Source of the DNA: Candidatus Nanoarchaeia archaeon
GTDB lineage: Archaea > Nanobdellota > Nanobdellia > SCGC-AAA011-G17 > JAFCDX01
Direction of reading: 5' to 3'
Assembly: GCA_028716945.1 (NCBI GenBank)
Contig: JAQUOT010000001.1
Coordinates: forward strand, 187,927 to 251,926
DNA length: 64,000 nucleotides
Under the pieces are notes generated by a model that made no database searches, was not told the origin of the DNA, and worked only from the letters and a program-made list of their open reading frames with translations. This document shows, in pieces, positions 17,189 to 63,382 of this stretch (its first letter is position 1; every line of letters starts with the position of its first letter). The translations under genes were made by a program, and so were the position numbers.

Positions 17189-17338
17189 GGAGCGGTAGCT
17201 CAGAAAGGTTTTGAAGTTTAAGACCTTGAGCAACCTGGGAGAGCATAGAAATATCTCAAACCACGCTGAAGCCGTGGATGAAAGGTTATACGTCTAGTAT
17301 ACCTTGCCAAATCGGGGGTTCAAATCCCCCTCGCTCCA
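17189..17338 (+). tRNA. tRNA-Phe (anticodon GAA) with three introns (17204..17233, 17245..17259, 17281..17311)
   Basis: The hand fold gives acceptor GGAGCGG/TCGCTCC plus A73. The D-arm is GCTC-AGCCTGGGA-GAGC after removal of a 30-nt insert. The anticodon arm is CCACG-CTGAAGC-CGTGG, the variable loop ATGTC, and the T-arm GGGGG-TTCAAAT-CCCCC. The spliced product is 74 nt. Each intron is bounded by a BHB-like motif with 3-nt bulges. An AT-rich TATA-like tttaaatatat lies about 30 nt upstream. Confidence 0.85.
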
Positions 17339-18026
17339 TTTTCTTTATATTTTTAATATTAGAACTTCTTATTAATTTAATAAAAGAGGAGGCATTATTA
17401 TAACCGCTTATTTGTATTTTATATTTTTCATACCTTTTATTAGTTCTTTTATCTATATAATTTTCATGTCCTACATAATGATCTATCTTTTGAATTTTAA
17501 TCCAATCAGATATTTTGTATATTAAATTTTTATCTTTTAGACCAAGATTAATAACTGGATAAAATTTATATTTTCCGTGATTCTTTTTTAAACACAAAGA
17601 ACCATCTGTATCAAAAATTCCTTTAATGAATGCTTTAGCATAAATTTTATTATCCCATATCCATCGAGGAACCTTATTTCTATAATTTATTTTTTTATAA
17701 CCTATAATATTAAGAAAAGATAATATCCCTTTAGATCTCTTTGTTAAGATTAAAGTATTAATCTTTTTCTTTTGATATAAATTCATCTTTACATTGAATA
17801 AAAACAAAACTTTATCTTTAATATAGTTTGAATAATTCCTCTCATCTTTGAGATTACTAAAAATAGAAAAAATATAATCATTGCTTCCTAAATTATAATA
17901 AACATGGCCATCTCCAGACAAAATACCTAAAAATTCTGACAAGTCTCTAGAAGAGGATTTAGGAAAAATAATTTTATTCTTAATATCTTGGTGACTTAGT
18001 TGAATATCTGATAAATCAAATTTCAT
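17286..18026 (-). CDS. LAGLIDADG family endonuclease (two-motif, free-standing), paralog A
   Basis: Track ORF 17286..18068. I chose the start MKFDLSD at 18026, matching paralog B. The two motifs are LGILSGDGHV and IKGIFDTDGSL. The last 53 nt are antisense to the tRNA-Phe 3' part. Confidence 0.8.
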   Translation of the reverse strand: MKFDLSDIQLSHQDIKNKIIFPKSSSRDLSEFLGILSGDGHVYYNLGSNDYIFSIFSNLKDERNYSNYIKDKVLFLFNVKMNLYQKKKINTLILTKRSKGILSFLNIIGYKKINYRNKVPRWIWDNKIYAKAFIKGIFDTDGSLCLKKNHGKYKFYPVINLGLKDKNLIYKISDWIKIQKIDHYVGHENYIDKRTNKRYEKYKIQISGYNNASSFIKLIRSSNIKNIKKMERGGFEPPIWQGILDV

Positions 18027-18048
18027 GATTAATAAAAAGCGAATTTGA

Positions 18049-18105
18049 TTTATAAATCTGGCGCGCACCCATCTGCAAGTTGCAATTTGTTAGAATATAT
18101 ATTTT
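18049..18105. repeat. Conserved 57-nt block upstream of LAGLIDADG paralog A (TATA-like box plus GC-rich and palindromic core)
   Basis: The sequence tttataaatctggcgcgcacccatctgcaagttgcaatttgttagaatatatatttt is nearly identical to 63404..63459, apart from a 2-nt indel and a local shift. It contains the palindrome tgcaaGttgca. Confidence 0.85.
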
Positions 18106-35955: not shown

Positions 35956-37266
35956 TTATTTTTTATTCTTTTTAGAATCTTTTCTCATTCTTGATTTTCT
36001 TATAGCATAATTTACAGGATTTTTTATCATTTTACATAATCCATCAGGCACACAAATCGCCATGCTTTTATAATAAGCAGGATTATCACAATTAGCAGGT
36101 AAAATGATGTTAGATTGTTTTTTAGACCATTCTAACTGAGATTTAGCATAACCTTCTCTTAAAGGTTCATAATTTTTCTTATTCCACTCATTCAAAGTTT
36201 TCTCAATTTTATCCAAAGGCCAATTGCAATGCCTTAAAAAATTAATTAAAATGAAAACTGCTCTTTTTCTTCCATCTTCTTTTAATCCTTTTAATAATAA
36301 TTTAATACAGGGAGGAAAATCTTCTTCTAAAATCTCATCTGTAGAGTTTTCATAAGTTTTCTTTTCTAATATTTTAACATCGGCTTTTTGGTTTTTCATG
36401 TTCCAATCATAAGATTGTAATAATAAATTTCTTGCACTTTCTTTGGTAACATTTTCCATATCTAAAAATATTAATTTAACTTTTACATTTTCAATTTTTG
36501 CATCTTCTAGTTTGAAAGTTCTTAATGCTTCTTTAGTTGGATTTAAAGGAATACTAACTAAATTAGATTTTTCATTTATAGAATATGGAGCACGAAACAT
36601 ATGCCTTGAAGAAATTAAAACAGAATCTATATCTACAATAGAATAAGGATCAAATTTTCCCTCTTTAACTAAATCTTTCATATGTTTAGTAAATTTTAGA
36701 GAAAGTTTATCTAAAGAATAAATCTTTAAAATCCTTTCAGTTAAAAAAGGTTTTATCATTTCTTTCAGGTAATTTGCAACTATTCTAACTAATTCTGGAA
36801 ATAATAATCTTGTTTGTTTTCCATTTAATTGTTCAGGAAAAGATTCATAAGGTATTCCTATATGAAATCCATGATTACCTGAAAATTTCAAGGAGATATC
36901 TTTTACATCATGAAAGATTAATGCTTCTAATAATAATTCTGCAGTAATTCTTGATATTTCTACATCTTTACAATCTATATCTAATAATAAATCCCACCCA
37001 CTTCTATTTTCATCTAATTCTCTTTTATTCATTCCAGGTTTTAATTGTAAGGGATCATGCCACCTTTCTTCTGAAATATGAAAAGAAGTCATTCCTTTTT
37101 TAACTAAATCATCTATATCTCCAGGAAAATTGATTGTATCTGGTCTTTTACCTCTCACATCAGAAAACCAGGCTTGCACTTCCCTATTTTGTGCTATCTT
37201 TAATAATTCATCTTTTACATCTTTTCTAGAATAATATTCTCTTATTTTCTTATAATCCAATTGCAT
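35956..37266 (-). CDS. priS: DNA primase, fused PriS catalytic domain plus PriL-CTD-like Fe-S domain
   Basis: 436 aa. The AEP motifs are DLLLDIDC (DxD) and SGNHGFHI. The C-terminal part has FPPCIKLLLKGL...GRKRAVFILINFL plus CDN..C....C, like the PriL C-terminal domain. Confidence 0.7.
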   Translation of the reverse strand: MQLDYKKIREYYSRKDVKDELLKIAQNREVQAWFSDVRGKRPDTINFPGDIDDLVKKGMTSFHISEERWHDPLQLKPGMNKRELDENRSGWDLLLDIDCKDVEISRITAELLLEALIFHDVKDISLKFSGNHGFHIGIPYESFPEQLNGKQTRLLFPELVRIVANYLKEMIKPFLTERILKIYSLDKLSLKFTKHMKDLVKEGKFDPYSIVDIDSVLISSRHMFRAPYSINEKSNLVSIPLNPTKEALRTFKLEDAKIENVKVKLIFLDMENVTKESARNLLLQSYDWNMKNQKADVKILEKKTYENSTDEILEEDFPPCIKLLLKGLKEDGRKRAVFILINFLRHCNWPLDKIEKTLNEWNKKNYEPLREGYAKSQLEWSKKQSNIILPANCDNPAYYKSMAICVPDGLCKMIKNPVNYAIRKSRMRKDSKKNKK

Positions 37267-53328: not shown

Positions 53329-53940
53329 TTGATTGTTTGGAGTTCTATGAAAACAAGGGGTTTAATTATATTTCCAATATTATTAGGATTGGTTTTATTT
53401 ATTTCTGGATGTAATACTATAACTGGAGAAGTTATTGGTTGTGGAGACCATTATTCATTTGTAGCAAATGCTTGTTGTTTAGATCAAAATGCAAATAAAA
53501 TATGTGATAAAGACGAATTTGCAATAAGAGAAGAATGTAGTATTAAAAGTGAATTTAAATGCTTATCTTACCAAGCAACCCCAGATAAAATAACTATAAA
53601 ATTAAAACCTGCTTTAAGTACAACAATTCCAATAGGTGACGGAGAAATAACTGCAGAGATGTTACCTGTTGCTGCTATATCCAAAATAACTCTACCTGAA
53701 GTAGGAATAAATGGTTGTAAAGGAGTTTACATTGATACTGTTGAAAATGGATTCAGAGGAACAGAAGAAAAAACATTTGAAATTCCTTGTGTAAGTGATA
53801 AAGGAGTTATTGATTCTGATATTATAATAGATTTCCTAGTTTACAAACCATCACATGCAAAAGGGCCATCAGCACCAACTTATAATTCTATAACTGCTTC
53901 TGTTAAAGGAACCTTTAGATCTTTAGTTGAAGAAGTTTAA
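53329..53940 (+). CDS. Secreted or lipid-anchored hypothetical protein
   Basis: 203-aa ORF. The likely start is MKTRGLIIFP at 53347. A hydrophobic segment ends in FISGC (lipobox-like), followed by NTITGEVIGC. Confidence 0.6.
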   Translation: MIVWSSMKTRGLIIFPILLGLVLFISGCNTITGEVIGCGDHYSFVANACCLDQNANKICDKDEFAIREECSIKSEFKCLSYQATPDKITIKLKPALSTTIPIGDGEITAEMLPVAAISKITLPEVGINGCKGVYIDTVENGFRGTEEKTFEIPCVSDKGVIDSDIIIDFLVYKPSHAKGPSAPTYNSITASVKGTFRSLVEEV

Positions 53941-54620
53941 ACCAATAATTCATGCTCTTTTTTTATTTCTTTTCCATCTAAATTTAGAATTCTAATTATT
54001 TTTCCTTTTCTTTTAGCTAATAATCTTGCTTTAGCAAAATCATCTTCACTTTCTTTAGGAATTATTAAATCTGTAATTTCATAAATATGTTTTATTATCA
54101 AATTACTAAAATCTTCTTTAACATCAAAAGTAAATTCTTTTGTAATATCTGTATTTTCAAATGAAGCAGAACAAAAATTATCTTTTAATGTACCTCCTGG
54201 TTTAGGTAAGGAATCTTTACAAGACAAATTGCAATTATCTGCTCTTAATTTCAATAATAAAAAATCAAACTTGAATTTTTCAATTATTTCTAATAATTTT
54301 TCTTTGGTAATTTCTTGTTCGGTAATGTCTGCCCTGTAAACTTTTCCCCTCTTAGAATATTCATTTTGTAAATCTAATTCTTTTTCAAAGTCTCTAAAAG
54401 CGACTATTGCTCCAGAAATATTAATTTTTGAAGAAGCTTCTTTAGCAATTAAGTAACATAAGAAGTTTGAAAACTCAAAACTTGTTTTTACAGATAATTT
54501 TTTAGATTTTTTTAAAGTAATTAAAGCTCTATCAGTATAATTACCTTTTCCAAATCTTTTAAATTGTTCATGAGCTAATTCGCTTCCTTTATTTTCAAAT
54601 ATTTCTTTTATGAAATTCAT
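53937..54620 (-). CDS. Hypothetical protein
   Basis: 227-aa ORF. I recognise no family. It is translationally coupled to a small upstream ORF by an ATGA overlap. Confidence 0.6.
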   Translation of the reverse strand: MNFIKEIFENKGSELAHEQFKRFGKGNYTDRALITLKKSKKLSVKTSFEFSNFLCYLIAKEASSKINISGAIVAFRDFEKELDLQNEYSKRGKVYRADITEQEITKEKLLEIIEKFKFDFLLLKLRADNCNLSCKDSLPKPGGTLKDNFCSASFENTDITKEFTFDVKEDFSNLIIKHIYEITDLIIPKESEDDFAKARLLAKRKGKIIRILNLDGKEIKKEHELLV

Positions 54621-54724
54621 TTTTCACCTTGAATCATTTTATTATATTTTCCTTGTCCTATTAAAACCCAGTAGATTACTCCAACTGCAGTTATTCCAAG
54701 CATTACTATAAGCCAATTATTCAT
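54617..54724 (-). CDS. Small single-TM protein (35 aa), hypothetical
   Basis: Hand translation gives MNNWLIVMLGITAVGVIYWVLIGQGKYNKMIQGEK. It exactly fills the gap between the deaminase stop (54727) and the next gene start (54620), with an ATGA overlap. Confidence 0.35.
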   Translation of the reverse strand: MNNWLIVMLGITAVGVIYWVLIGQGKYNKMIQGEK

Positions 54725-54726
54725 TT

Positions 54727-55221
54727 TTAAAGTTTTCCCATCTTACCTAAATGAAATTGGTAAGATAAATTATTAAATTCATTTGAATTATATAAATAAG
54801 ATTCTAATCTCCCACACAAAAATACATCTTTTATTTCATTTAATAAAATTATCCTACTACACGAAGTACAAGAAGGATCTCCTGGAAACTTACCAACCTC
54901 TCCCCCTTTATCTAATTTAACATGATATAATGTAGAATTTTTTATTTTAGAAGGATTATTTCTTAATGCTAATTGTATTGCATAATCCTCAGCATGTATT
55001 GCCCTACACAATTCTAAATGAGTTCCTCCTTCTAAATCAGTTCTTAAACAAGGATCACAAATATCTACACCAACAGGGAGATTATTTGCTTGAGATATTA
55101 AATTTCCATAAAAATCTACTATTATTACCCCTCGTTTAGATTTCTTACATTTAGAAAGTTTAGCTATACTTGTACAAATTTCTATATATTTTTTAATATC
55201 ATTAGAGTTAATTATTTCCAT
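54727..55221 (-). CDS. dCMP/cytidine deaminase family zinc enzyme
   Basis: 164 aa. It has HAEDYAI (the H(A/C)E motif) and PCTSCSRIIL (the PCxxC motif). Confidence 0.75.
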   Translation of the reverse strand: MEIINSNDIKKYIEICTSIAKLSKCKKSKRGVIIVDFYGNLISQANNLPVGVDICDPCLRTDLEGGTHLELCRAIHAEDYAIQLALRNNPSKIKNSTLYHVKLDKGGEVGKFPGDPSCTSCSRIILLNEIKDVFLCGRLESYLYNSNEFNNLSYQFHLGKMGKL

Positions 55222-55792
55222 TTTTGTCCACCAAATAATTTAATATTGTAATACATTGTGAAGTAAAATAGTTTGTTCTTCCTAAACTAAATACTTCTTT
55301 TGTGTATCTTTTTATAAATTTTTTGTTGTTTTTAGGAATTCCTTCATGGTCTCCTAAAATAAATATTGGATTTTCTTTTAATCCTATATTAGAAATATCT
55401 TTTCCTCTTTTATCCAATAAATAAAAGTTTTTCTTACCTGATTCAACTAATTCTTTTATTAAAGCTTGAAAAGATTTTTTCTCTACAAAGATTCCTGGAA
55501 AAGCTTTTATTTTTTTACCTTGTTTATACTTCCATAAAACACTTTTTAATAAATTACCTACATCTTTTTTAGATATAGGCATTTCAGAATCATAAATAAA
55601 TTCGATATGTCTTGGTGGATCTGGTGGTCCATTAAGAATTAAATGAAAAATTGTATCTTCACGCATGTTATTTGAAACAAAAAAAGCATTAATTATAGAA
55701 TGTATAACTATGTCTAAACGTCCTGCTTGCATTAAATCATTAAAATTTCCTGAGGTTTGTCCATGATTGGATATTAAGATAAATTCTCTCAT
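55208..55792 (-). CDS. trmY: tRNA (pseudouridine54-N1)-methyltransferase TrmY (SPOUT, DUF358)
   Basis: 194 aa. MREFILISNHGQTSGNF..L..AGRLDIVIHSIINAFFVS......LILNGPPDPPRHIEF resembles the Mj1640 family. Confidence 0.75.
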   Translation of the reverse strand: MREFILISNHGQTSGNFNDLMQAGRLDIVIHSIINAFFVSNNMREDTIFHLILNGPPDPPRHIEFIYDSEMPISKKDVGNLLKSVLWKYKQGKKIKAFPGIFVEKKSFQALIKELVESGKKNFYLLDKRGKDISNIGLKENPIFILGDHEGIPKNNKKFIKRYTKEVFSLGRTNYFTSQCITILNYLVDKNGNN

Positions 55793-55844
55793 AATTAATT
55801 CTAAATATTAACCTTTATAAATCTTAACTAAGTTTAAACATTAT

Positions 55845-55939
55845 AGCCCCTTAGTGTAGTGGCCAAATTGATTAAAAATCAAGGCTAGGCATACGAGACT
55901 CTGGATCTTGTGACGGAAGTTCGAATCTTCCAGGGGCTA
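55845..55939 (+). tRNA. tRNA-Gln (anticodon CTG) with a 22-nt D-loop intron (55867..55888)
   Basis: The acceptor is AGCCCCT/AGGGGCT (an A1-U72 pair as in archaeal tRNA-Gln) plus A73. The anticodon arm is CGAGA-CTCTGGA-TCTTG and the T-arm GGAAG-TTCGAAT-CTTCC. The BHB is GGCC|AAA|TTGA...TCAA|GGCT|AGG. The spliced D-arm is GTGT-AGTGGCCAA-GCAT, giving 73 nt. A TATA-like ctttataaat lies about 25 nt upstream. Confidence 0.85.
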
Positions 55940-55940
55940 C

Positions 55941-56013
55941 GCTCCCATAGTCTAGCGGTTAAGGATATGAGCTTCTCGAGCTCGTGACCTGGGTTCAAAT
56001 CCCAGTGGGAGCA
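55941..56013 (+). tRNA. tRNA-Glu (anticodon CTC), uninterrupted
   Basis: The acceptor is GCTCCCA/TGGGAGC plus A73. The D-arm is GTCT-AGCGGTTAA-GGAT, the anticodon arm TGAGC-TTCTCGA-GCTCG, and the T-arm CTGGG-TTCAAAT-CCCAG. Only 1 nt separates it from tRNA-Gln. Confidence 0.9.
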
Positions 56014-56183
56014 TAATCAACTTCATTCTTAACTCACAGCGCTCAAATAATTATCCCTTCTTATAAGACTTATAACCTTAGTTCTTAACTCTGAGAGTTA
56101 GCAACAGTTATGATGTTGCTCTAGTAAACTATTATATCCTAAATCACAATAATATTTAAAAAGATAATTGAACTAAATTTAGT

Positions 56184-56366
56184 ATGAAAAACTCGTTAAA
56201 TGAGCTACTTATTTATCTAGGGATATTGATAGGATTATTTAATACATTTATGATACCAAATATATTGGAGATATCTAAAATATTCTGGTGGATTTCTGGT
56301 ATCGCGGTATTAATATTTACTATACCTACGCTTATTAAAGCATATCAAGTTATTATAGGCAAATAA
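56184..56366 (+). CDS. Small two-TM membrane protein, hypothetical
   Basis: 60-aa ORF with two hydrophobic helices. I recognise no family. Confidence 0.4.
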   Translation: MKNSLNELLIYLGILIGLFNTFMIPNILEISKIFWWISGIAVLIFTIPTLIKAYQVIIGK

Positions 56367-56384
56367 ATTATAGGGGTTAAAAAG

Positions 56385-56636
56385 ATGTTTAATAAAAAAG
56401 ATTTATCAAATGTTAAAACAATATTCTTGAGCCCATTATTTTGGAAATATTCTACAATCACTTTATCAGAAATATTTTGTGTTTTTGTTATTTCCAATAT
56501 ATTATTTTCTACTGACCCTTGGTTTACAAATCTATATAAAACCCCCTATGTTATTTTCTTATTATTATTCCTCTTCCTTTATTATGTAATGGAAATATTT
56601 AAACAAAGGGAAAACTTACAAAAAGTAAAAATATAA
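56385..56636 (+). CDS. Small membrane protein, hypothetical
   Basis: 83-aa ORF with 2-3 hydrophobic segments, preceded by aggggt 8 nt upstream. Confidence 0.4.
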   Translation: MFNKKDLSNVKTIFLSPLFWKYSTITLSEIFCVFVISNILFSTDPWFTNLYKTPYVIFLLLFLFLYYVMEIFKQRENLQKVKI

Positions 56637-56653
56637 AATAGACATCTGTCGAT

Positions 56654-56681
56654 TTATCTTCTCGAAGATAATAATCTTTTT
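56654..56681 (+). terminator. Hairpin plus T-run, candidate transcription terminator
   Basis: The palindrome ttatcttc-tc-gaagataa is followed by aatcttttt about 20 nt after the stop at 56636. Confidence 0.35.
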
Positions 56682-56861
56682 ATACCTCTTTATCCTTATA
56701 CTAAAAACAGCGCACAAAAGTCTGATTAACAAAACAAAGGACAGGAAACTGACCTTAGTAGAGTTAAGGACAAAGTTGGTTCCGCACGGCGGGAGCATCT
56801 ATAATTTTACTATTTCTAAATTATAAATAAACTTTATATAGTTGCTTCACTTAATTATATT

Positions 56862-57827
56862 ATGTTAAGGTTAGAAATTCCTAAAGAAGATTTGGTAAAT
56901 CTATATGAAAAAGAGAAACTTACAACTTTTCAAATAGCGGAAAAACTTAATTGTTGTCAAGCAACAATCTGGAAAAGATTAAAAGAATATGATATAAAAA
57001 CAAGAATTTCTGGAATTGAGAGGGTTAAAATAACAAAAGAAAAACTTTTTGATTTATATATAAATAAAAAATATTCTACTTGGAAAATTGAAAAAATAAC
57101 TGAAATCCCAAGGGGAACGATACATAGAAAACTTAAAGAGTTTGGAATTCAATCAAGAGATATTTCCGACTCCCATATTATCTATGAAAAAAGAGATTTT
57201 TCTGGGGATCCTTTAGAAAAAGCTTACCTTATAGGATTTAGAATTGGGGATCTGGGAGTTAGAAAAAGAGGTGCTAAAAGTAAATTAATCTGTGTTGCTA
57301 GTGGAAGCACCATAGAAGAACAGATAATTCTAATAAAAAATTTATTTAAAAATTATGGAAAAGTTTGGATTAAAAAATCAAAAAATAATAAAATAAATGT
57401 ATATGTATACCTTAATTTATCTTTTGGTTTTTTATTAGATAAAAAGATTCCAAAAGAATTAGAAAAAAACAAAAAACTATTTTTTGCATTCCTGGGAGGA
57501 TTTACAGATGCGGAAGGGAGTATGAAATTAAATAAAAATATGGCTTATTATTCTTTAGGAAATTATGATAGTAAATTATTATTTAAGATATATAACTATC
57601 TAAATAAATATGGAATAAAATGTAATAAACCTCATTCAGATAATAGAATTGGAACTTTCAATAGTCAGGGATATAAATACAACTCAAATTATTGGACATT
57701 AAAAATTTGTAGAAAAGAAGAATTATACAAATTACTTAAAGAATTAAAACCTCACATTAAACATAAAAATAAAATAAAAGATTTAAATATAGTAGAAAAT
57801 AACCTAATCGAAAGGATTAAAAGTTAA
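56862..57827 (+). CDS. LAGLIDADG family endonuclease with two N-terminal HTH repeats
   Basis: 321 aa. A repeated HTH unit is present (LYEKEKLTTFQIAEKLNCCQATIWKRLKEYDIKTR and LYINKKYSTWKIEKITEIPRGTIHRKLKEFGIQSR). The LAGLIDADG motifs are AYLIGFRIGDLGV and AFLGGFTDAEGSM. Confidence 0.75.
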   Translation: MLRLEIPKEDLVNLYEKEKLTTFQIAEKLNCCQATIWKRLKEYDIKTRISGIERVKITKEKLFDLYINKKYSTWKIEKITEIPRGTIHRKLKEFGIQSRDISDSHIIYEKRDFSGDPLEKAYLIGFRIGDLGVRKRGAKSKLICVASGSTIEEQIILIKNLFKNYGKVWIKKSKNNKINVYVYLNLSFGFLLDKKIPKELEKNKKLFFAFLGGFTDAEGSMKLNKNMAYYSLGNYDSKLLFKIYNYLNKYGIKCNKPHSDNRIGTFNSQGYKYNSNYWTLKICRKEELYKLLKELKPHIKHKNKIKDLNIVENNLIERIKS

Positions 57828-57844
57828 AAAGATAATATATTAAC

Positions 57845-59371
57845 ATGAAAAAGTTTTACGTAACAACCCCAATATATTATGTAAATGATATAGCTAGTAT
57901 AGGCCATGCTTACACTACTTTTGCAGCAGATACCTTAGCTAGATGGCATAGATTAAAAGGAGAAGATGTTTTTTTCTTAACAGGTTTAGATGAAAACTCT
58001 CAAAAAACAGTCAAAGCAGCAGAAACTGCAGGTGTTAAAGATTTAAAAGAATATACTAATCAAATGGCTTTGAAATGGACTTCTACTTGGAAAAATCTAA
58101 ACATTTCTAATAATGGATTTATAAGAACTACTGAAGCTAAACATAAAAAATTAGTAAAAGAATTCTTTATGAAAGTGTATGAAAAAGGGGATATTTACAA
58201 AGGGAAATATGAAGGATTATATTGCGAAGGATGTGAATGTTTTTATACTGAATCAGACCTAGTAGAAGGAAAATGTCCTTTTCACAAAACAGAACCAAAG
58301 TTTATATCTGAAGAAAATTATTTTTTTAAATTAACAAAATATGCAGATAAAATATTAACTTACATAGAAAAAAATCCTGATTTTATTTTACCTAATTCCA
58401 GAAAAAATGAAGTTGTAGAATTTATTAAGATGGGATTAAAAGATATTAGTATTTCTAGACCAAATGTTGATTGGGGAATTCCCTTACCAATAGACAAAAA
58501 TCATCATTTCTGGGTATGGTTTGATGCTTTACCAAATTATATCACTGGAGCTCCAAAATATTGGCCTGCAAATTGTCATTTATTAGCAAAAGATATTTTA
58601 AGATTCCATTGCGTTATTTGGCCTGCTATGTTAATGAGTGCAGGTTATGACTTACCAAAACAATTATTTGTACATGGATTTTTAACTATTAATGGACAAA
58701 AGATGTCAAAATCTTTAGGCAATGCTATAGACCCAAATGTTTTAGCTCAAAAATATTCTGTAGATTCATTAAGATATTATTTAATGCGTAGCATTCCATT
58801 TGGAGAAGATGGAGATTTTTCAGAAAAAGCATTAATAACAAGAACAAATACAGAATTAGCAGATTCTCTGGGTAATTTATTAAATAGAGTTGTTTCTATG
58901 TGTGAAAAATATTATGATTCTAAAATACCAAAAGCAAAAGAAGACAAAGAATTAAGTTCAAAATTAGATTTTAAAAAAATTGATTCCTTAATATTAAATT
59001 ATAAGTTACATGAGGCTTTAGCAGAAATATTTTACTTTGTAGATCAATGTAATAAATATGTAAATGAAAAAGAACCTTGGAATTTAGCTAAAAATCAGAA
59101 AGAAGATGAACTTGAAAAGGTTTTATTTAATTTGGCAGAATCATTAAGAATAATTTCTCAATTAATTTATTCTTTTATGCCAGAAACAGCAGAAAAAATA
59201 AATGAACAGCTTGGATTTAAATTAAGAGATAGTTTTGACTTGAAATGGGGTAATGCAAAATCAAAAGGTATAAAAAAAGGAGAAACTTTGTTTAAAAAAA
59301 TTGGCCTAACTGATGGACTTAAAAAATCTTCAAATGATGGTTTAAAAGGGGGACCTAGAAATGGACTTTAA
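57845..59371 (+). CDS. metG: Methionyl-tRNA synthetase, catalytic core and anticodon-binding domain only
   Basis: 508 aa. It has TTPIYYVNDIASIGHAYT (HIGH-like), the CEGCECF...CPFH Zn knuckle and KMSKSLGN. It ends in a Gly/Lys-rich tail without the usual C-terminal tRNA-binding domain. Confidence 0.9.
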   Translation: MKKFYVTTPIYYVNDIASIGHAYTTFAADTLARWHRLKGEDVFFLTGLDENSQKTVKAAETAGVKDLKEYTNQMALKWTSTWKNLNISNNGFIRTTEAKHKKLVKEFFMKVYEKGDIYKGKYEGLYCEGCECFYTESDLVEGKCPFHKTEPKFISEENYFFKLTKYADKILTYIEKNPDFILPNSRKNEVVEFIKMGLKDISISRPNVDWGIPLPIDKNHHFWVWFDALPNYITGAPKYWPANCHLLAKDILRFHCVIWPAMLMSAGYDLPKQLFVHGFLTINGQKMSKSLGNAIDPNVLAQKYSVDSLRYYLMRSIPFGEDGDFSEKALITRTNTELADSLGNLLNRVVSMCEKYYDSKIPKAKEDKELSSKLDFKKIDSLILNYKLHEALAEIFYFVDQCNKYVNEKEPWNLAKNQKEDELEKVLFNLAESLRIISQLIYSFMPETAEKINEQLGFKLRDSFDLKWGNAKSKGIKKGETLFKKIGLTDGLKKSSNDGLKGGPRNGL

Positions 59372-59528
59372 CATAAAAAATTGTACTTTATGTTATTCAA
59401 TAAAAGGTGAACAAATTCTTTTAGGTATTAAAAAAAAGGGTTTTGGAAAAGGAAATTTAAATGGGTTTGGTGGGCATGTAGAAGATAATGAAACAATTAA
59501 AAATAGCAATATACAAGTAATAATGTGA
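59361..59528 (+). pseudogene. Truncated Nudix (MutT/MTH1-like) hydrolase fragment
   Basis: Hand-translated 55 codons: MDFNIKNCTLCYSIKGEQILLGIKKKGFGKGNLNGFGGHVEDNETIKNSNIQVIM. It matches the N-terminal part of Nudix proteins up to the start of the Nudix box (GGxVExxET). It then stops before the REUxEE core. Confidence 0.5.
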
Positions 59529-59534
59529 TCTAAA

Positions 59535-59900
59535 ATGGTAGAAGGCATAAAAAAAGCAGAACATTGTGGGGATAAAATAACTATAGATGAATTTGGAAAA
59601 GTAGATCTAAGAATTGCTCAAATTAAAGCAGTAAAAAATCATCCTAATGCAGATAAATTATATATTCTTGATGTAAGTTTAGGCAAAGGAGAACATGATG
59701 TTCAAATTGTAGCAGGAATAAGGCAAGCCTATACTGAAGATGAATTAATTGGAAAGAAAATTATAATGGTTAGAAACTTAGAACCTGCAGTATTAAGAGG
59801 AGTAGAAAGTGAAGGTATGTTATTAGCTGCAGAATTCAAAGGAAAAATAGTTCTTTTAACAGTTGATAAAGATATAGAAACTGGGGCTAAAATAAAATAA
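59535..59900 (+). CDS. Stand-alone tRNA-binding domain protein (Trbp111/MetRS C-terminal domain-like, OB fold)
   Basis: 121 aa. VDLRIAQIKAVKNHPNADKLYILDVSLG....QIVAGI......L.GKKIIMVRNLEPAVLRGVESEGMLLAA is present. Confidence 0.8.
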   Translation: MVEGIKKAEHCGDKITIDEFGKVDLRIAQIKAVKNHPNADKLYILDVSLGKGEHDVQIVAGIRQAYTEDELIGKKIIMVRNLEPAVLRGVESEGMLLAAEFKGKIVLLTVDKDIETGAKIK

Positions 59901-60786: not shown

Positions 60787-60882
60787 TGAGCCCGCGGAGA
60801 TTTGAACTCCGGGCCCCCACCAATGATTTGGTTTAAATCCAATTTATCAGAGTGGTGCGCTACCAGGCTGCGCCACGGGCTC
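60787..60882 (-). tRNA. tRNA-Ile (anticodon GAT) with a 22-nt anticodon-loop intron (60822..60843)
   Basis: Read on the minus strand, the acceptor is GAGCCCG/CGGGCTC plus A73. The D-arm is GCGC-AGCCTGGTA-GCGC, the anticodon arm CCACT-CTGATAA-GGTGG after splicing, and the T-arm CGGAG-TTCAAAT-CTCCG. The BHB is TGAT|AAA|TTGG...CCAA|ATCA|TTG. The mature product is 74 nt. Confidence 0.85.
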
Positions 60883-61673: not shown

Positions 61674-62687
61674 ATGGAAAAAAAAGAAATACTTGCACAT
61701 TTTAGTTATGGAAGTGCTATAAGAAATGCTATAGAAAAAATAACTAATGCTAATCGTGGAGTTTTAGTTGTTTTTGTTAAAGATAAGGGTATTAAAAAAA
61801 TAAGTGTTGGTGGTTTTAAAATAAATGAAGAGTTTTCTGAAGAAAGACTTGCTGAATTAGCAAAATTAGATGGAGCAATATTGGTAGATAATAAACTACA
61901 AAAAATAATTAGTGCTAATGTCTTATTAAATCCGAGTATAAAAATTCCTAGTACAGAAACAGGTACAAGACATCAAGCAGCAGAAAGAACTGCAAGACAA
62001 TTAGATACAATGGTTCTTGCTATTTCTGCAAAAACAGGAACTGCAATGGTATATCATGGAAATGGTAAATTAAAATTAAATAATTTAGGTAAAATATTCA
62101 CAAAGACTGGAGAAGCACTAAGAATTATTGAAAAGCATAGAGAATTATTTAAAGTTTTAATAAAAAAGTTTGATACTTTTGAATTATTAGAAATGGTTAC
62201 ATTAGAAGACCTTGCTTCTATATTTCAAAGAGAAAAAATAATGGATTCTGTTGCAGATATAATCTCTGTTTATTTAAGCGAATTAGGTGATGAAGGAGAA
62301 TTAACAGAATTACAATTAAAAGAAATTATAACTTATGTTCATGCAGAATTAGCTGCAATTATGGCAGATTATCATGATTATTTTAATTTTGATAAGATAA
62401 TTGAAGAATTAAAAGACTTAAAACGTGATGAAATTGTAGTTAAAGAAAACATTTTTAAAATATTCTTAGATAATAGAAAAAAAGAAGATACATTAATACC
62501 GAAAGGTTATAGAATATTAAAGAACATCCCTATTTTAACAGAAGAAAATATAAAGTTATTAATGGAAACTTTCCCAAGTTTAAAAGAATTAATTTCTGCT
62601 CAAGAAGAAGAATTAGCTGCTATCAAATCTATAGGAAATAAAAAGGCTAAAGCTATAAGAGAATATCTATTAAAAGCACAGATTTAA
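61674..62687 (+). CDS. disA: DisA-type diadenylate cyclase (DAC domain, helical linker and C-terminal HhH)
   Basis: 337 aa. The DAC motifs are LDGAILVD and ETGTRHQAAERTARQ. The layout is collinear with bacterial DisA, and the C-terminus has IKSIGNKKAKAIREYL (HhH). Confidence 0.8.
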   Translation: MEKKEILAHFSYGSAIRNAIEKITNANRGVLVVFVKDKGIKKISVGGFKINEEFSEERLAELAKLDGAILVDNKLQKIISANVLLNPSIKIPSTETGTRHQAAERTARQLDTMVLAISAKTGTAMVYHGNGKLKLNNLGKIFTKTGEALRIIEKHRELFKVLIKKFDTFELLEMVTLEDLASIFQREKIMDSVADIISVYLSELGDEGELTELQLKEIITYVHAELAAIMADYHDYFNFDKIIEELKDLKRDEIVVKENIFKIFLDNRKKEDTLIPKGYRILKNIPILTEENIKLLMETFPSLKELISAQEEELAAIKSIGNKKAKAIREYLLKAQI

Positions 62688-63382
62688 GAATTATTTCTAA
62701 AATAATAATATTTTTTCCAATGTTTGGGGTTATTAGGAGAGATAATTTTCATCCATTTATTTAACATAAATTCTCCTCTAATTGAAACCTTATATAAATC
62801 TAACCAATTATGATTTTTATGTTTATAAGAATAGATTGTAGAACGAATTCCTAATTTGTTTATTAAATTATTTAATTGTAATCCTAAAGGTTTAGAAGTG
62901 GTGCTTATCTCTAAACGAGGATATAATTTTTTATATTTTGGTTGTAAATATAAAGTTCCATCCGTATCAAAGATTCCTTTAACCACATTAATAGTATACT
63001 CCTTTCTATTTAAGAAACAAGAAGGTATACAAATATCAAATTTTTTACCAAGAGGTAATTTAAGAATTTTATTTTTAAATTCGATTAATGAATCATCCCA
63101 AATTTGAAATCCAAATACTTTTGTAGAAGGCATTTCTTTTGGTTTTATTTTTAAATCATAAACTTTTTTATATAAATCTATAATTTTATTATTATAATGT
63201 TCTTTATCATCAAACATATGCCCCCTTAAAGAATAAAGTCCTTTAGACGTATTTCCGTTTTTGTAAAAATTCATACTTCCATCTCCAATATGCAATCCTG
63301 TTTCTTCTGCTAATTCTATTATTGGTTTTTCTGGAAGTATAAGTTTAGTGCTTTGCTTAATGTCAGATAAATCAAACTTCAT
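62684..63382 (-). CDS. LAGLIDADG family endonuclease (two-motif, free-standing), paralog B
   Basis: 232 aa. It starts MKFDLSDIKQS like paralog A. The motifs are TGLHIGDGSM and VKGIFDTDGTL. Confidence 0.8.
   Translation of the reverse strand: MKFDLSDIKQSTKLILPEKPIIELAEETGLHIGDGSMNFYKNGNTSKGLYSLRGHMFDDKEHYNNKIIDLYKKVYDLKIKPKEMPSTKVFGFQIWDDSLIEFKNKILKLPLGKKFDICIPSCFLNRKEYTINVVKGIFDTDGTLYLQPKYKKLYPRLEISTTSKPLGLQLNNLINKLGIRSTIYSYKHKNHNWLDLYKVSIRGEFMLNKWMKIISPNNPKHWKKYYYFRNNS

What the first reader, a model, noticed from the sequence alone, without database searches (positions are those of the whole stretch)
55845..55939. tRNA-Gln(CUG) with a clean BHB intron inside the D-loop
The 22 nt at 55867..55888 interrupt the D-loop. 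The flanks fold as central helix GGCC (55861-64) with GGCU (55883-86), bulges AAA and AGG, and inner helix UUGA with UCAA closing a UUAAAAA loop. Splicing restores GUGU-AGUGGCCAA-GCAU, a typical archaeal tRNA-Gln D-arm. The gene is separated by a single nucleotide from an intron-less tRNA-Glu, so both are probably processed from one precursor.
Basis: partly seen in the sequence, partly recalled or inferred. Interest (0 to 1): 0.5.

Follow-up and report, generated by a model that had tools for sequence, protein, structure and literature searches.

The report
D-loop intron in archaeal tRNA-Gln gene
This is a real glutamine tRNA gene of a tiny DPANN archaeon, interrupted in its D-loop by a 22-base protein-spliced intron; this is a known kind of archaeal tRNA intron, so the finding is correct but ordinary.

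Summary
55845-55939 (+) encodes tRNA-Gln(CUG) with a 22-nt insert (55867-55888) between positions 21 and 22, and tRNA-Glu(CUC) follows after one nucleotide. ARAGORN and Rfam at gathering score miss the gene. After in-silico splicing, ARAGORN calls tRNA-Gln(CUG). A reference-genome scan found 24 other tRNA-Gln(CUG) genes, mostly DPANN-labelled, with a 14-36 nt insert at or within 3 nt of this site. The bulge-helix-bulge cleavage rule gives the same mature D-arm in all of them, and the helices covary. Intron-less genes also exist: 105 metagenomic genes carry exactly the predicted junction sequence. The syntenic orthologues in two relatives (TrmY 98 % and 66 % identical) are also intron-less. The motif is not a strict "clean" BHB, because the outer helix is missing here and in 24 of 25 genes. 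It is the relaxed HBh' form already described for D-loop introns in Methanopyrus kandleri, and D-loop intron splicing has been shown in vitro there and in Aeropyrum pernix. This is a new member of a known kind. Actual splicing and the endonuclease were not testable here. Side finding: the intron-bearing allele begins a ~3.7-kb tract that diverges sharply from an otherwise 97-100 % identical relative and carries a LAGLIDADG gene.

The parts
55814..55821 (+). TTTATAAA, a candidate archaeal TATA box centred about 27 nt upstream of the tRNA-Gln 5' end (inferred promoter of the Gln-Glu pair)
   Evidence: Read directly. It is identical in the relative L131 (alignment). In a 27 % GC genome such A/T-rich strings are common, so this is an inference only.
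55845..55866 (+). tRNA-Gln(CUG) exon 1: acceptor 5' strand, U8 A9, D-stem 5' strand GUGU, D-loop AGUGGCCAA up to A21
55861..55864 (+). 5' strand (GGCC, nt 18-20a, exonic) of the 4-bp central helix of the bulge-helix-bulge motif
   Evidence: Pairs with 55883-55886. In homologues the third pair covaries: C-G in 11, U-A in 6.
55865..55867 (+). 5' bulge AAA; predicted cleavage between A55866 and A55867
   Evidence: The rule 'cut after the second bulge nucleotide' is established knowledge of archaeal EndA substrates.
55867..55888 (+). 22-nt intron between tRNA positions 21 and 22
55868..55882 (+).
   Evidence: 6 inner pairs. The first three inner pairs covary freely among homologues.
55883..55886 (+). 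3' strand (GGCU, intronic) of the central helix
55887..55889 (+). 3' 'bulge' AGG; predicted cleavage between G55888 and G55889. It is not closed by an adjacent outer helix and is really part of an internal loop next to the D-stem.
   Evidence: outer = 0; 24 of 25 homologues also lack the outer pair
55889..55939 (+). tRNA-Gln(CUG) exon 2: D-stem 3' strand GCAU, anticodon arm (anticodon CUG at 55901-55903), 4-nt variable region, T-arm, acceptor 3' strand, discriminator A; no encoded CCA
55940..55940 (+). Single-nucleotide spacer (C) between the two tRNA genes
   Evidence: The same 1-nt C spacer is present in L131.
55941..56013 (+). Intron-less tRNA-Glu(CUC)
   Evidence: ARAGORN; Rfam 63 bits

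Best explanation
55845-55939 is a functional tRNA-Gln(CUG) gene of a DPANN archaeon (class Nanoarchaeia by the label of its nearest relative). It is interrupted between nucleotides 21 and 22, at the 3' edge of the D-loop, by a 22-nt archaeal protein-spliced intron. In the precursor, D-loop nucleotides G18 G19 C20 C20a pair with the intron's GGCU to form the 4-bp central helix. An intron hairpin closes the 5' bulge. The 3' splice site lies in an internal loop next to the D-stem, which makes this the relaxed HBh' motif. By inference, the tRNA splicing endonuclease (EndA) cuts after the second nucleotide of each bulge (A55866|A55867 and G55888|G55889), and an RtcB-type ligase joins the exons, restoring GUGU-AGUGGCCAA-GCAU. 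Also by inference, the gene is transcribed together with tRNA-Glu(CUC), which starts 1 nt downstream. RNase P and/or RNase Z would separate the two, and CCA would be added afterwards. Shown here: the sequence anatomy, the cloverleaf after splicing, covariation of the motif, and intron-less orthologues matching the predicted junction. Inferred: the cleavage itself, the enzymes, and co-transcription.
For: (1) ARAGORN calls the in-silico spliced product tRNA-Gln(ctg), 73 nt. The Rfam tRNA model aligns the gene with one 26-nt D-loop insertion. (2) The precursor MFE fold is a cloverleaf plus a D-loop hairpin, z = -3.0. (3) The reference-genome scan found 24 tRNA-Gln(CUG) genes with a 14-36 nt D-loop insert, in MAGs labelled Woesearchaeota, Nanoarchaeota, Aenigmatarchaeota and Iainarchaeum, plus 5 labelled Methanosarcinales and 1 unclassified. 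Applying the BHB cut rule gives the mature D-arm GTGT-AGYGGYCAA-KCAT in all 25 genes, including five where the intron lies 1-3 nt upstream. (4) Covariation across the 20 genes in the same register: 90.7 % of cells pair against 71.6 % in shuffles (0 of 500 reach it) and 29-54 % when partners are slid. 29 cells are changed on both sides against 8.5 expected. The central-helix pair C20:G switches to U:A in 6 genes. (5) All 105 metagenomic tRNA-Gln(CUG) genes matching the D-arm pattern are intron-less and carry exactly GTGTAGTGGCCAAGCAT. The nearest matches the spliced product at 64 of 73 positions. (6) The syntenic gene next to trmY is intron-less in L131 (TrmY 98 %) and in L133 (TrmY 66 %). In L133 the D-arm and 5' anticodon arm are identical to the prediction. 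(7) Published work shows D-loop introns are spliced: A. pernix tRNA-Thr2 (PMC3241643) and M. kandleri tRNA-Glu 20b/21, HBh' type (PMC5829648). (8) Other tRNA genes in the window are also interrupted, so the organism must splice such introns: tRNA-Phe has three introns and tRNA-Ile has one.
Against: There are no expression data, so excision in this organism is inferred. The motif lacks the outer helix, and its 3' bulge can partly pair (U55860-A55887). Strict-specificity EndA enzymes cleave such substrates poorly (PMC5829648), and the EndA of this lineage was not identified. None was found among the 30 window ORFs scanned. Only 64 kb of the genome is visible, so a second, intact tRNA-Gln(CUG) elsewhere cannot be excluded. 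For genes whose junction is ambiguous, I chose the splice pair using the mature D-arm and the best pairing, which slightly favours the structure in the covariation count.
Confidence: 0.88

Rival explanations
1. The 22 nt are not removed; the mature tRNA-Gln keeps an enlarged D-arm with an extra hairpin.
For: The MFE fold of the unspliced RNA still forms a cloverleaf, with the insert as a self-contained hairpin. The covariance model tolerates the insert as a D-loop insertion at 26.9 bits.
Against: Among homologues the insert varies from 14 to 36 nt and shares no sequence outside the motif edges. What is conserved is the 4-bp helix and bulge geometry that defines EndA cleavage sites. The insert separates G18/G19 and A21 from the D-stem, which would disturb the D-loop/T-loop core. 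Closely related genomes do without it entirely.
Confidence: 0.03
2. The gene is a disrupted, non-functional copy (pseudogene), and another tRNA-Gln elsewhere in the genome does the decoding.
For: Only 64 kb of the genome is visible. The allele lies in a tract that looks recombinant relative to the nearest relative. Standard predictors do not call it.
Against: All four stems, the anticodon loop, the T-loop GTTCGAATC, the A1:U72 pair and the A73 discriminator are intact. It occupies the same trmY-adjacent slot as the only tRNA-Gln(CUG) seen in L131 and L133. The insert has precise splice-motif geometry shared with 24 other species, which random disruption would not produce. It is fused by 1 nt to an intact tRNA-Glu.
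Confidence: 0.05
3. The gene is spliced as described, but the allele is a recent import. The tRNA-Gln(intron)-tRNA-Glu pair arrived by homologous recombination together with the adjacent 1.8-kb insertion carrying a free-standing LAGLIDADG gene and a divergent MetRS gene. This would be homing-endonuclease-style co-conversion. It adds to the best explanation rather than excluding it.
For: Window versus L131: 97-100 % identity over 53936-55835, an abrupt drop at the tRNA-Gln 5' end to about 80 % in both tRNAs, 1.8 kb present only in the window (56015-57835, with the LAGLIDADG_3 ORF at 56862-57827), MetRS at 76.6 %, then 95.9 % again from 59532. A MetRS 88 % identical exists in another Nanoarchaeia lineage whose TrmY gene is only 72 % identical at the DNA level.
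Against: The direction is unknown; L131 could be the recombinant. The candidate donor-like contig L136 has no tRNA-Gln next to its MetRS gene. ORFs at this locus in L131, L132, L133 and L135 are not LAGLIDADG-type. The LAGLIDADG match is near threshold (23.9 bits against a 22.5 cut-off), and no target site is known.
Confidence: 0.3

Closest known systems
Methanopyrus kandleri pre-tRNA-Glu(UUC) D-loop intron at 20b/21, relaxed HBh' motif (PMC5829648)
   Same: It is a non-canonical intron at the 3' side of the D-loop, within 1 nt of this one. It has the same relaxed HBh' architecture: central helix, one well-closed bulge and an inner helix, with no closing outer helix. Two homologues here (L012, L025) have the intron at exactly 20b/21.
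   Different: The tRNA differs (Glu versus Gln), as does the organism (a hyperthermophilic euryarchaeon versus a low-GC DPANN archaeon). The M. kandleri tRNA also has a canonical intron, whereas this gene has only the D-loop intron. Splicing was tested in vitro there and not here.
Aeropyrum pernix pre-tRNA-Thr2(UGU) D-loop intron (PMC3241643)
   Same: [quoted passage not shown] It shows that the D-loop position is compatible with splicing.
   Different: That intron is described as a canonical BHB at a non-standard position and is cut by a crenarchaeal (alpha-beta)2 EndA that has the Crenarchaea-specific loop. Here the motif is relaxed and the enzyme is unknown.
Non-canonical tRNA introns of Crenarchaeota, Nanoarchaeota and ARMAN-2 at positions such as 20/21, 22/23, 25/26, 45/46 and 59/60 (PMC4090602, PMC3239211)
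   Same: The general phenomenon and mechanism are the same. Multiple introns per gene also occur in this window, where tRNA-Phe has three.
   Different: The review's illustrative list of positions (which ends with 'etc.') names 20/21 and 22/23 but not 21/22. I found no description, in the papers searchable here, of a tRNA-Gln(CUG) D-loop intron recurring across several DPANN lineages.

Membership tests
Archaeal EndA-spliced (bulge-helix-bulge) tRNA intron | The host is a tRNA gene whose cloverleaf and conserved nucleotides are restored by removing the insert | tested here: met
   ARAGORN calls tRNA-Gln(ctg) on the spliced sequence. The D-loop becomes AGUGGCCAA, with G18 G19 and A21 in place.
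Archaeal EndA-spliced (bulge-helix-bulge) tRNA intron | A 4-bp central helix with the two splice sites two nucleotides beyond its opposite ends on opposite strands | tested here: met
   GGCC 55861-64 pairs with GGCU 55883-86, and the cuts fall after A55866 and G55888. The same geometry holds in all 25 genes, with 4 of 4 pairs in 16, 3 of 4 in 8 and 2 of 4 in 1.
Archaeal EndA-spliced (bulge-helix-bulge) tRNA intron | The helices are maintained by compensatory substitutions in homologues | tested here: met
   covariation score 0.598 against 0.202 in shuffles (0 of 500 reach it). Slid controls score 0.045-0.199.
Archaeal EndA-spliced (bulge-helix-bulge) tRNA intron | Intron-less orthologues have the exon-exon junction sequence predicted by the splice rule | tested here: met
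   105 metagenomic genes and the syntenic L133 gene carry that junction sequence. The syntenic L131 gene is also intron-less at this site.
Archaeal EndA-spliced (bulge-helix-bulge) tRNA intron | The intron is excised in vivo or in vitro by the splicing endonuclease | not testable with these tools
   No transcript data and no enzyme assay were available. The inference rests on analogy with PMC3241643 and PMC5829648.
Archaeal EndA-spliced (bulge-helix-bulge) tRNA intron | The genome encodes EndA and an RtcB-type ligase | tested here: inconclusive
   Neither was found among 30 window ORFs scanned with Pfam, but the window is only a small part of the genome. A related lineage has RtcB and archease beside trmY (L135).
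Strict hBHBh' ('clean' canonical BHB) motif | Both 3-nt bulges are closed by flanking helices h and h' | tested here: not met
   The inner helix h' is present (6 bp). The outer helix h is absent, with U55860 facing C55890, and 24 of 25 homologues also lack the outer pair. The MFE fold pairs U55860 with A55887 instead. The motif is therefore the relaxed HBh' type.
Canonical-position tRNA intron (37/38) | The intron lies one nucleotide 3' of the anticodon | tested here: not met
   The intron lies between positions 21 and 22, and the anticodon loop CUCUGGA is uninterrupted.
Archaeal tRNA-Gln | Anticodon CUG in a 7-nt loop, an A1:U72 first pair and an A73 discriminator, as in the homologues collected here | tested here: met
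   A1, U72 and A73 are shared with the collected homologues, with one exception at position 73 and a few genes cut off at contig ends. That these act as identity elements is background knowledge and was not tested.

The most novel reading that the evidence does not exclude
The D-loop intron of tRNA-Gln(CUG) recurs across several DPANN lineages yet is present or absent between genomes whose flanks are 97-100 % identical. In the window it sits exactly at the edge of a ~3.7-kb recombinant tract that carries a free-standing LAGLIDADG gene. The most novel reading not excluded is that such protein-spliced tRNA introns spread among DPANN archaea as whole alleles by homologous recombination. That spread may be driven by a neighbouring homing endonuclease, and the intron might protect the tRNA gene from cleavage or integration. 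The palindromic D-loop sequence GGCC would make this site a hot spot, because a nearby copy of GGCYAR automatically creates the 4-bp helix and both bulges.
Probability: 0.12. Interest if true: 0.6.

Novelty: new member of a known kind. Interest (0 to 1): 0.3.

Why it matters
For annotation, this matters directly. The gene is invisible to ARAGORN and to Rfam at gathering score. ARAGORN calls only 3 of the 24 homologues tRNA-Gln; 9 are mis-called as tRNA-Cys, Ser, Ile, Leu or Thr and 12 get no call at that position. DPANN genomes will therefore look as if they lack tRNA-Gln(CUG) or carry odd extra tRNAs unless an intron-aware predictor is used. Biologically, it adds a well-supported case of a non-canonical intron recurring at one site of one tRNA across several DPANN lineages. 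The splice site slides by 1-3 nt between lineages, and the intron is present or absent between near-identical genomes. That is useful material for the open question of how archaeal tRNA introns are gained, lost and moved. It also implies that these Nanoarchaeia have an endonuclease able to cut relaxed motifs. It does not reveal a new mechanism.

Tried and rejected
(1) ARAGORN on the window and Rfam at gathering score did not find the gene. Rfam in E-value mode gave only a sub-threshold local hit. (2) I designed the metagenome scan to catch both intron-bearing (up to 30 nt) and intron-less alleles with this D-arm. It returned only intron-less genes. That validates the junction but gives no close intron-bearing relatives. 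(3) I looked for the tract's donor through the nearest MetRS (P0121, L136). That contig has no tRNA-Gln near its MetRS gene. (4) I tested whether LAGLIDADG genes accompany this locus in relatives. ORFs at the locus in L131, L132, L133 and L135 gave no LAGLIDADG match, so the association is specific to the window. (5) Comparing the spliced tRNA sequences showed no grouping of intron-bearing alleles, because 73 nt carry too little signal. (6) MAFFT re-registered the five homologues with shifted splice sites, so the formal covariation test used only the 20 same-register genes. (7) I searched 30 window ORFs for EndA, RtcB or archease and found none. (8) The supplement of PMC5829648, which might list DPANN tRNA intron positions, is not held as text. 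(9) I did not resolve the exact splice register of the tRNA-Ile intron (37/38 or 38/39). (10) Five homologue loci are labelled 'uncultured Methanosarcinales'. I could not verify or reject that label; their GC content is 32-43 %.

Full report
**1. The observation**

A single C (55940) separates the gene from tRNA-Glu(CUC) at 55941-56013. ARAGORN and Rfam both find that tRNA-Glu (63 bits). Neither finds the Gln gene by default settings.

In permissive mode the Rfam tRNA model aligns positions 9-63 at 26.9 bits, just under the 29-bit gathering score. It places one 26-nt insertion in the D-loop. Deleting 55867-55888 gives a 73-nt sequence that ARAGORN calls tRNA-Gln(ctg).

The unspliced RNA folds into a cloverleaf with an extra hairpin in the D-loop (-33.2 kcal/mol, z = -3.0).

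**2. Anatomy of the motif**

- The central helix is G55861-U55886, G55862-C55885, C55863-G55884, C55864-G55883.
- The 5' bulge is AAA (55865-67).
- The intron hairpin UUGAUU/AAUCAA closes that bulge.
- Applying the archaeal rule (cut after the second nucleotide of each 3-nt bulge) gives cuts at A55866|A55867 and G55888|G55889. In tRNA numbering that is between A21 and G22.

U55860 faces C55890, so there is no adjoining outer helix (outer = 0). The MFE fold pairs U55860 with A55887 instead. The nearest closing helix is the D-stem itself. This is the relaxed HBh' form, not a strict hBHBh' motif.

**3. Comparative evidence for the intron**

One scan of 185,579 reference genomes looked for tRNA-Gln(CUG) with a 14-44 nt gap in the D-loop. 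It returned 24 loci:

| MAG label | Loci |
|---|---|
| Woesearchaeota | 10 |
| Nanoarchaeota | 3 |
| Aenigmatarchaeota | 2 |
| Iainarchaeum | 3 |
| "uncultured Methanosarcinales" (unverified) | 5 |
| "uncultured archaeon" | 1 |

The inserts are 14-36 nt and share no sequence apart from their edges.

For each gene I selected the splice pair that restores the shared 9-nt D-loop, taking the best-paired one where more than one qualified. In all 25 genes that pair also has bulge-helix-bulge geometry, and the mature D-arm is GTGT-AGYGGYCAA-KCAT.

Intron positions are:
- 21/22 in 20 genes, including the window
- 20b/21 in two Iainarchaeum genes
- 20a/20b in two genes
- 20/20a in one gene

So the splice site has slid while the product stayed the same.

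On the 20 same-register genes the structure pairs in 90.7 % of cells. Shuffles give 71.6 % (0 of 500 reach the observed value) and slid partners give 29-54 %. 29 cells are changed on both sides against 8.5 expected. The C20:G pair is replaced by U:A in six genes, and the inner-helix pairs take four to five different pair types. The outer pair fails in 24 of 25 genes, so the relaxed form is the rule for this intron.

**4. Comparative evidence for the junction**

It returned 105 genes, all intron-less. By design of the pattern, all carry GTGTAGTGGCCAAGCAT, which is the predicted exon-exon junction. The best are 64 of 73 identical to the spliced product and come from contigs of 27-30 % GC.

The flanking gene trmY led to the true neighbours:
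- **L131.** TrmY is 98 % identical. The contig is 447 kb (766 kb in the NCBI copy) and is labelled Candidatus Nanoarchaeia. At the same place it has an intron-less tRNA-Gln(CUG), one C, then tRNA-Glu(CUC).
- **L133.** TrmY is 66 % identical. Beside trmY it has an intron-less tRNA-Gln whose D-arm and 5' anticodon arm equal the prediction.

**5. Mechanism**

- **Shown:** gene identity, motif geometry, covariation, and natural intron-less equivalents.
- **Inferred from established knowledge of archaeal tRNA splicing:** EndA cleavage at the two sites, RtcB-type ligation, CCA addition (none is encoded), and separation of Gln and Glu from one transcript by RNase P and/or RNase Z.

A TTTATAAA box lies about 27 nt upstream (55814-21) and is conserved in L131. 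However, A/T-rich strings are common in a 27 % GC genome.

Published experiments show that D-loop introns are spliced. In A. pernix tRNA-Thr2, splicing is slower than at 37/38 (PMC3241643). For the M. kandleri tRNA-Glu 20b/21 intron (HBh' type), the broad-specificity A. pernix EndA removes it well, while the strict A. fulgidus enzyme and M. kandleri's own loop-less enzyme cut it poorly (PMC5829648). The same paper links DPANN alpha4 enzymes carrying an 'L3' insertion to heavy tRNA gene disruption.

No EndA or RtcB gene was found among 30 window ORFs. RtcB and archease lie beside trmY in a related lineage (L135).

**6. Comparison with what is known, and novelty**

Non-canonical tRNA introns, including D-loop ones at 20/21, 20b/21 and 22/23, are well documented (PMC4090602, PMC5829648, PMC3241643). 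This is therefore a new member of a known kind.

I found no description, in the searchable literature, of the recurrence of a tRNA-Gln(CUG) D-loop intron across several DPANN lineages. That literature is incomplete, and intron-aware predictors would probably report these genes.

**7. Beyond the finding**

The window and L131 compare as follows:

| Window region | Content | Identity to L131 |
|---|---|---|
| 53936-55835 | 227-aa ORF, dCMP deaminase, trmY, promoter | 97-100 % |
| from the tRNA-Gln 5' end | both tRNAs | ~80 % |
| 56015-57835 | extra 1.8 kb including the LAGLIDADG_3 ORF at 56862-57827 | absent from L131 |
| 57836-59301 | MetRS gene | 76.6 % |
| 59532-59900 | tRNA-binding protein gene | 95.9 % |

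The intron-bearing allele therefore begins a ~3.7-kb block that looks exchanged by recombination. A MetRS 88 % identical occurs in another Nanoarchaeia lineage, but that contig has no tRNA-Gln nearby, so neither the source nor the direction of exchange is resolved.

The window also holds a tRNA-Phe(GAA) with three introns, one of them again in the D-loop, and a tRNA-Ile with an anticodon-loop intron. There are two further LAGLIDADG-domain ORFs, one next to tRNA-Phe and one about 1.8 kb from tRNA-Ile.

**8. Verdict**

Confidence that this is a spliced, functional tRNA-Gln gene is about 0.88. Interest is 0.3: it is a solid and useful annotation with some evolutionary colour, but not a new kind of system.

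Noticed in passing
window 17189-17338 (+): This is a 150-nt tRNA-Phe(GAA) gene that appears to carry three introns: 17204-17233 (30 nt, position 15/16, again in the D-loop), 17245-17259 (15 nt, 25/26) and 17281-17311 (31 nt, 46/47). Each has a 3-4 bp central helix in bulge-helix-bulge register. Removing all three gives a clean 74-nt cloverleaf that ARAGORN calls tRNA-Phe(gaa). Rfam scores the unspliced gene at only 31.6 bits, and ARAGORN misses it.
   Followed up: partly
window 55836-59500, compared with L131: A block of ~3.7 kb diverges sharply from a relative that is 97-100 % identical on both sides. It holds both tRNAs (~80 % identity), a 1.8-kb insertion (56015-57835) and the MetRS gene (76.6 %). 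L131 instead has a NUDIX gene after its MetRS gene. This looks like allele replacement by recombination, with one breakpoint right at the tRNA-Gln 5' end.
   Followed up: partly
window 17286-18068 (-), 56862-57827 (+), 62684-63382 (-): There are three free-standing ORFs with a LAGLIDADG_3 domain (20.2, 23.9 and 37.6 bits; cut-off 22.5). Each lies near an intron-bearing tRNA gene. The first overlaps the 3' end of tRNA-Phe, the second lies 850 nt downstream of tRNA-Glu, and the third is 1.8 kb from tRNA-Ile. ORFs at the trmY locus in four relatives gave no LAGLIDADG match.
   Followed up: partly
window 60787-60882 (-): tRNA-Ile(GAU) has a ~22-nt intron in the anticodon loop. By hand, the helix register fits 38/39 (giving A38) better than 37/38, but I did not resolve this. 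The orthologous tRNA-Ile in L136 (8117-8190) is intron-less.
   Followed up: partly
L002-L025 (tRNA-Gln loci of other genomes): ARAGORN calls only 3 of the 24 homologous intron-bearing tRNA-Gln genes as tRNA-Gln. It mis- as tRNA-Cys(aca), Ser(gct), Ile(aat), Leu(gag/aag) or Thr(agt), and makes no call at that position in 12. This is an annotation hazard for DPANN genomes.
   Followed up: yes
window 55861-55866 and 55883-55888; same positions in homologues: The intron is flanked by an imperfect direct repeat, GGCCAA ... GGCTAG (exactly GGCCAA ... GGCCAA in L021). GGCC is a palindrome, so a nearby copy of this D-loop hexamer creates both the 4-bp central helix and the two bulges. This may explain why the site is intron-prone. 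In genes with GGTC the partner is GACC or GACT, so pairing, not repetition, is what is kept.
   Followed up: no
L133 2899-3948: In this relative (TrmY 66 %), a 262-aa ORF with a weak nucleotidyltransferase match sits between tRNA-Gln and tRNA-Glu, which are adjacent in the window and in L131. The Gln-Glu junction is therefore a repeated site of insertion.
   Followed up: no
window 35956-37266 (-) and 61674-62687 (+): One ORF matches both the small and the large DNA primase subunit, suggesting a fused PriS-PriL. Another ORF is a full-length DisA-type protein (DAC, linker and HhH domains), a family best known from bacteria.
   Followed up: no
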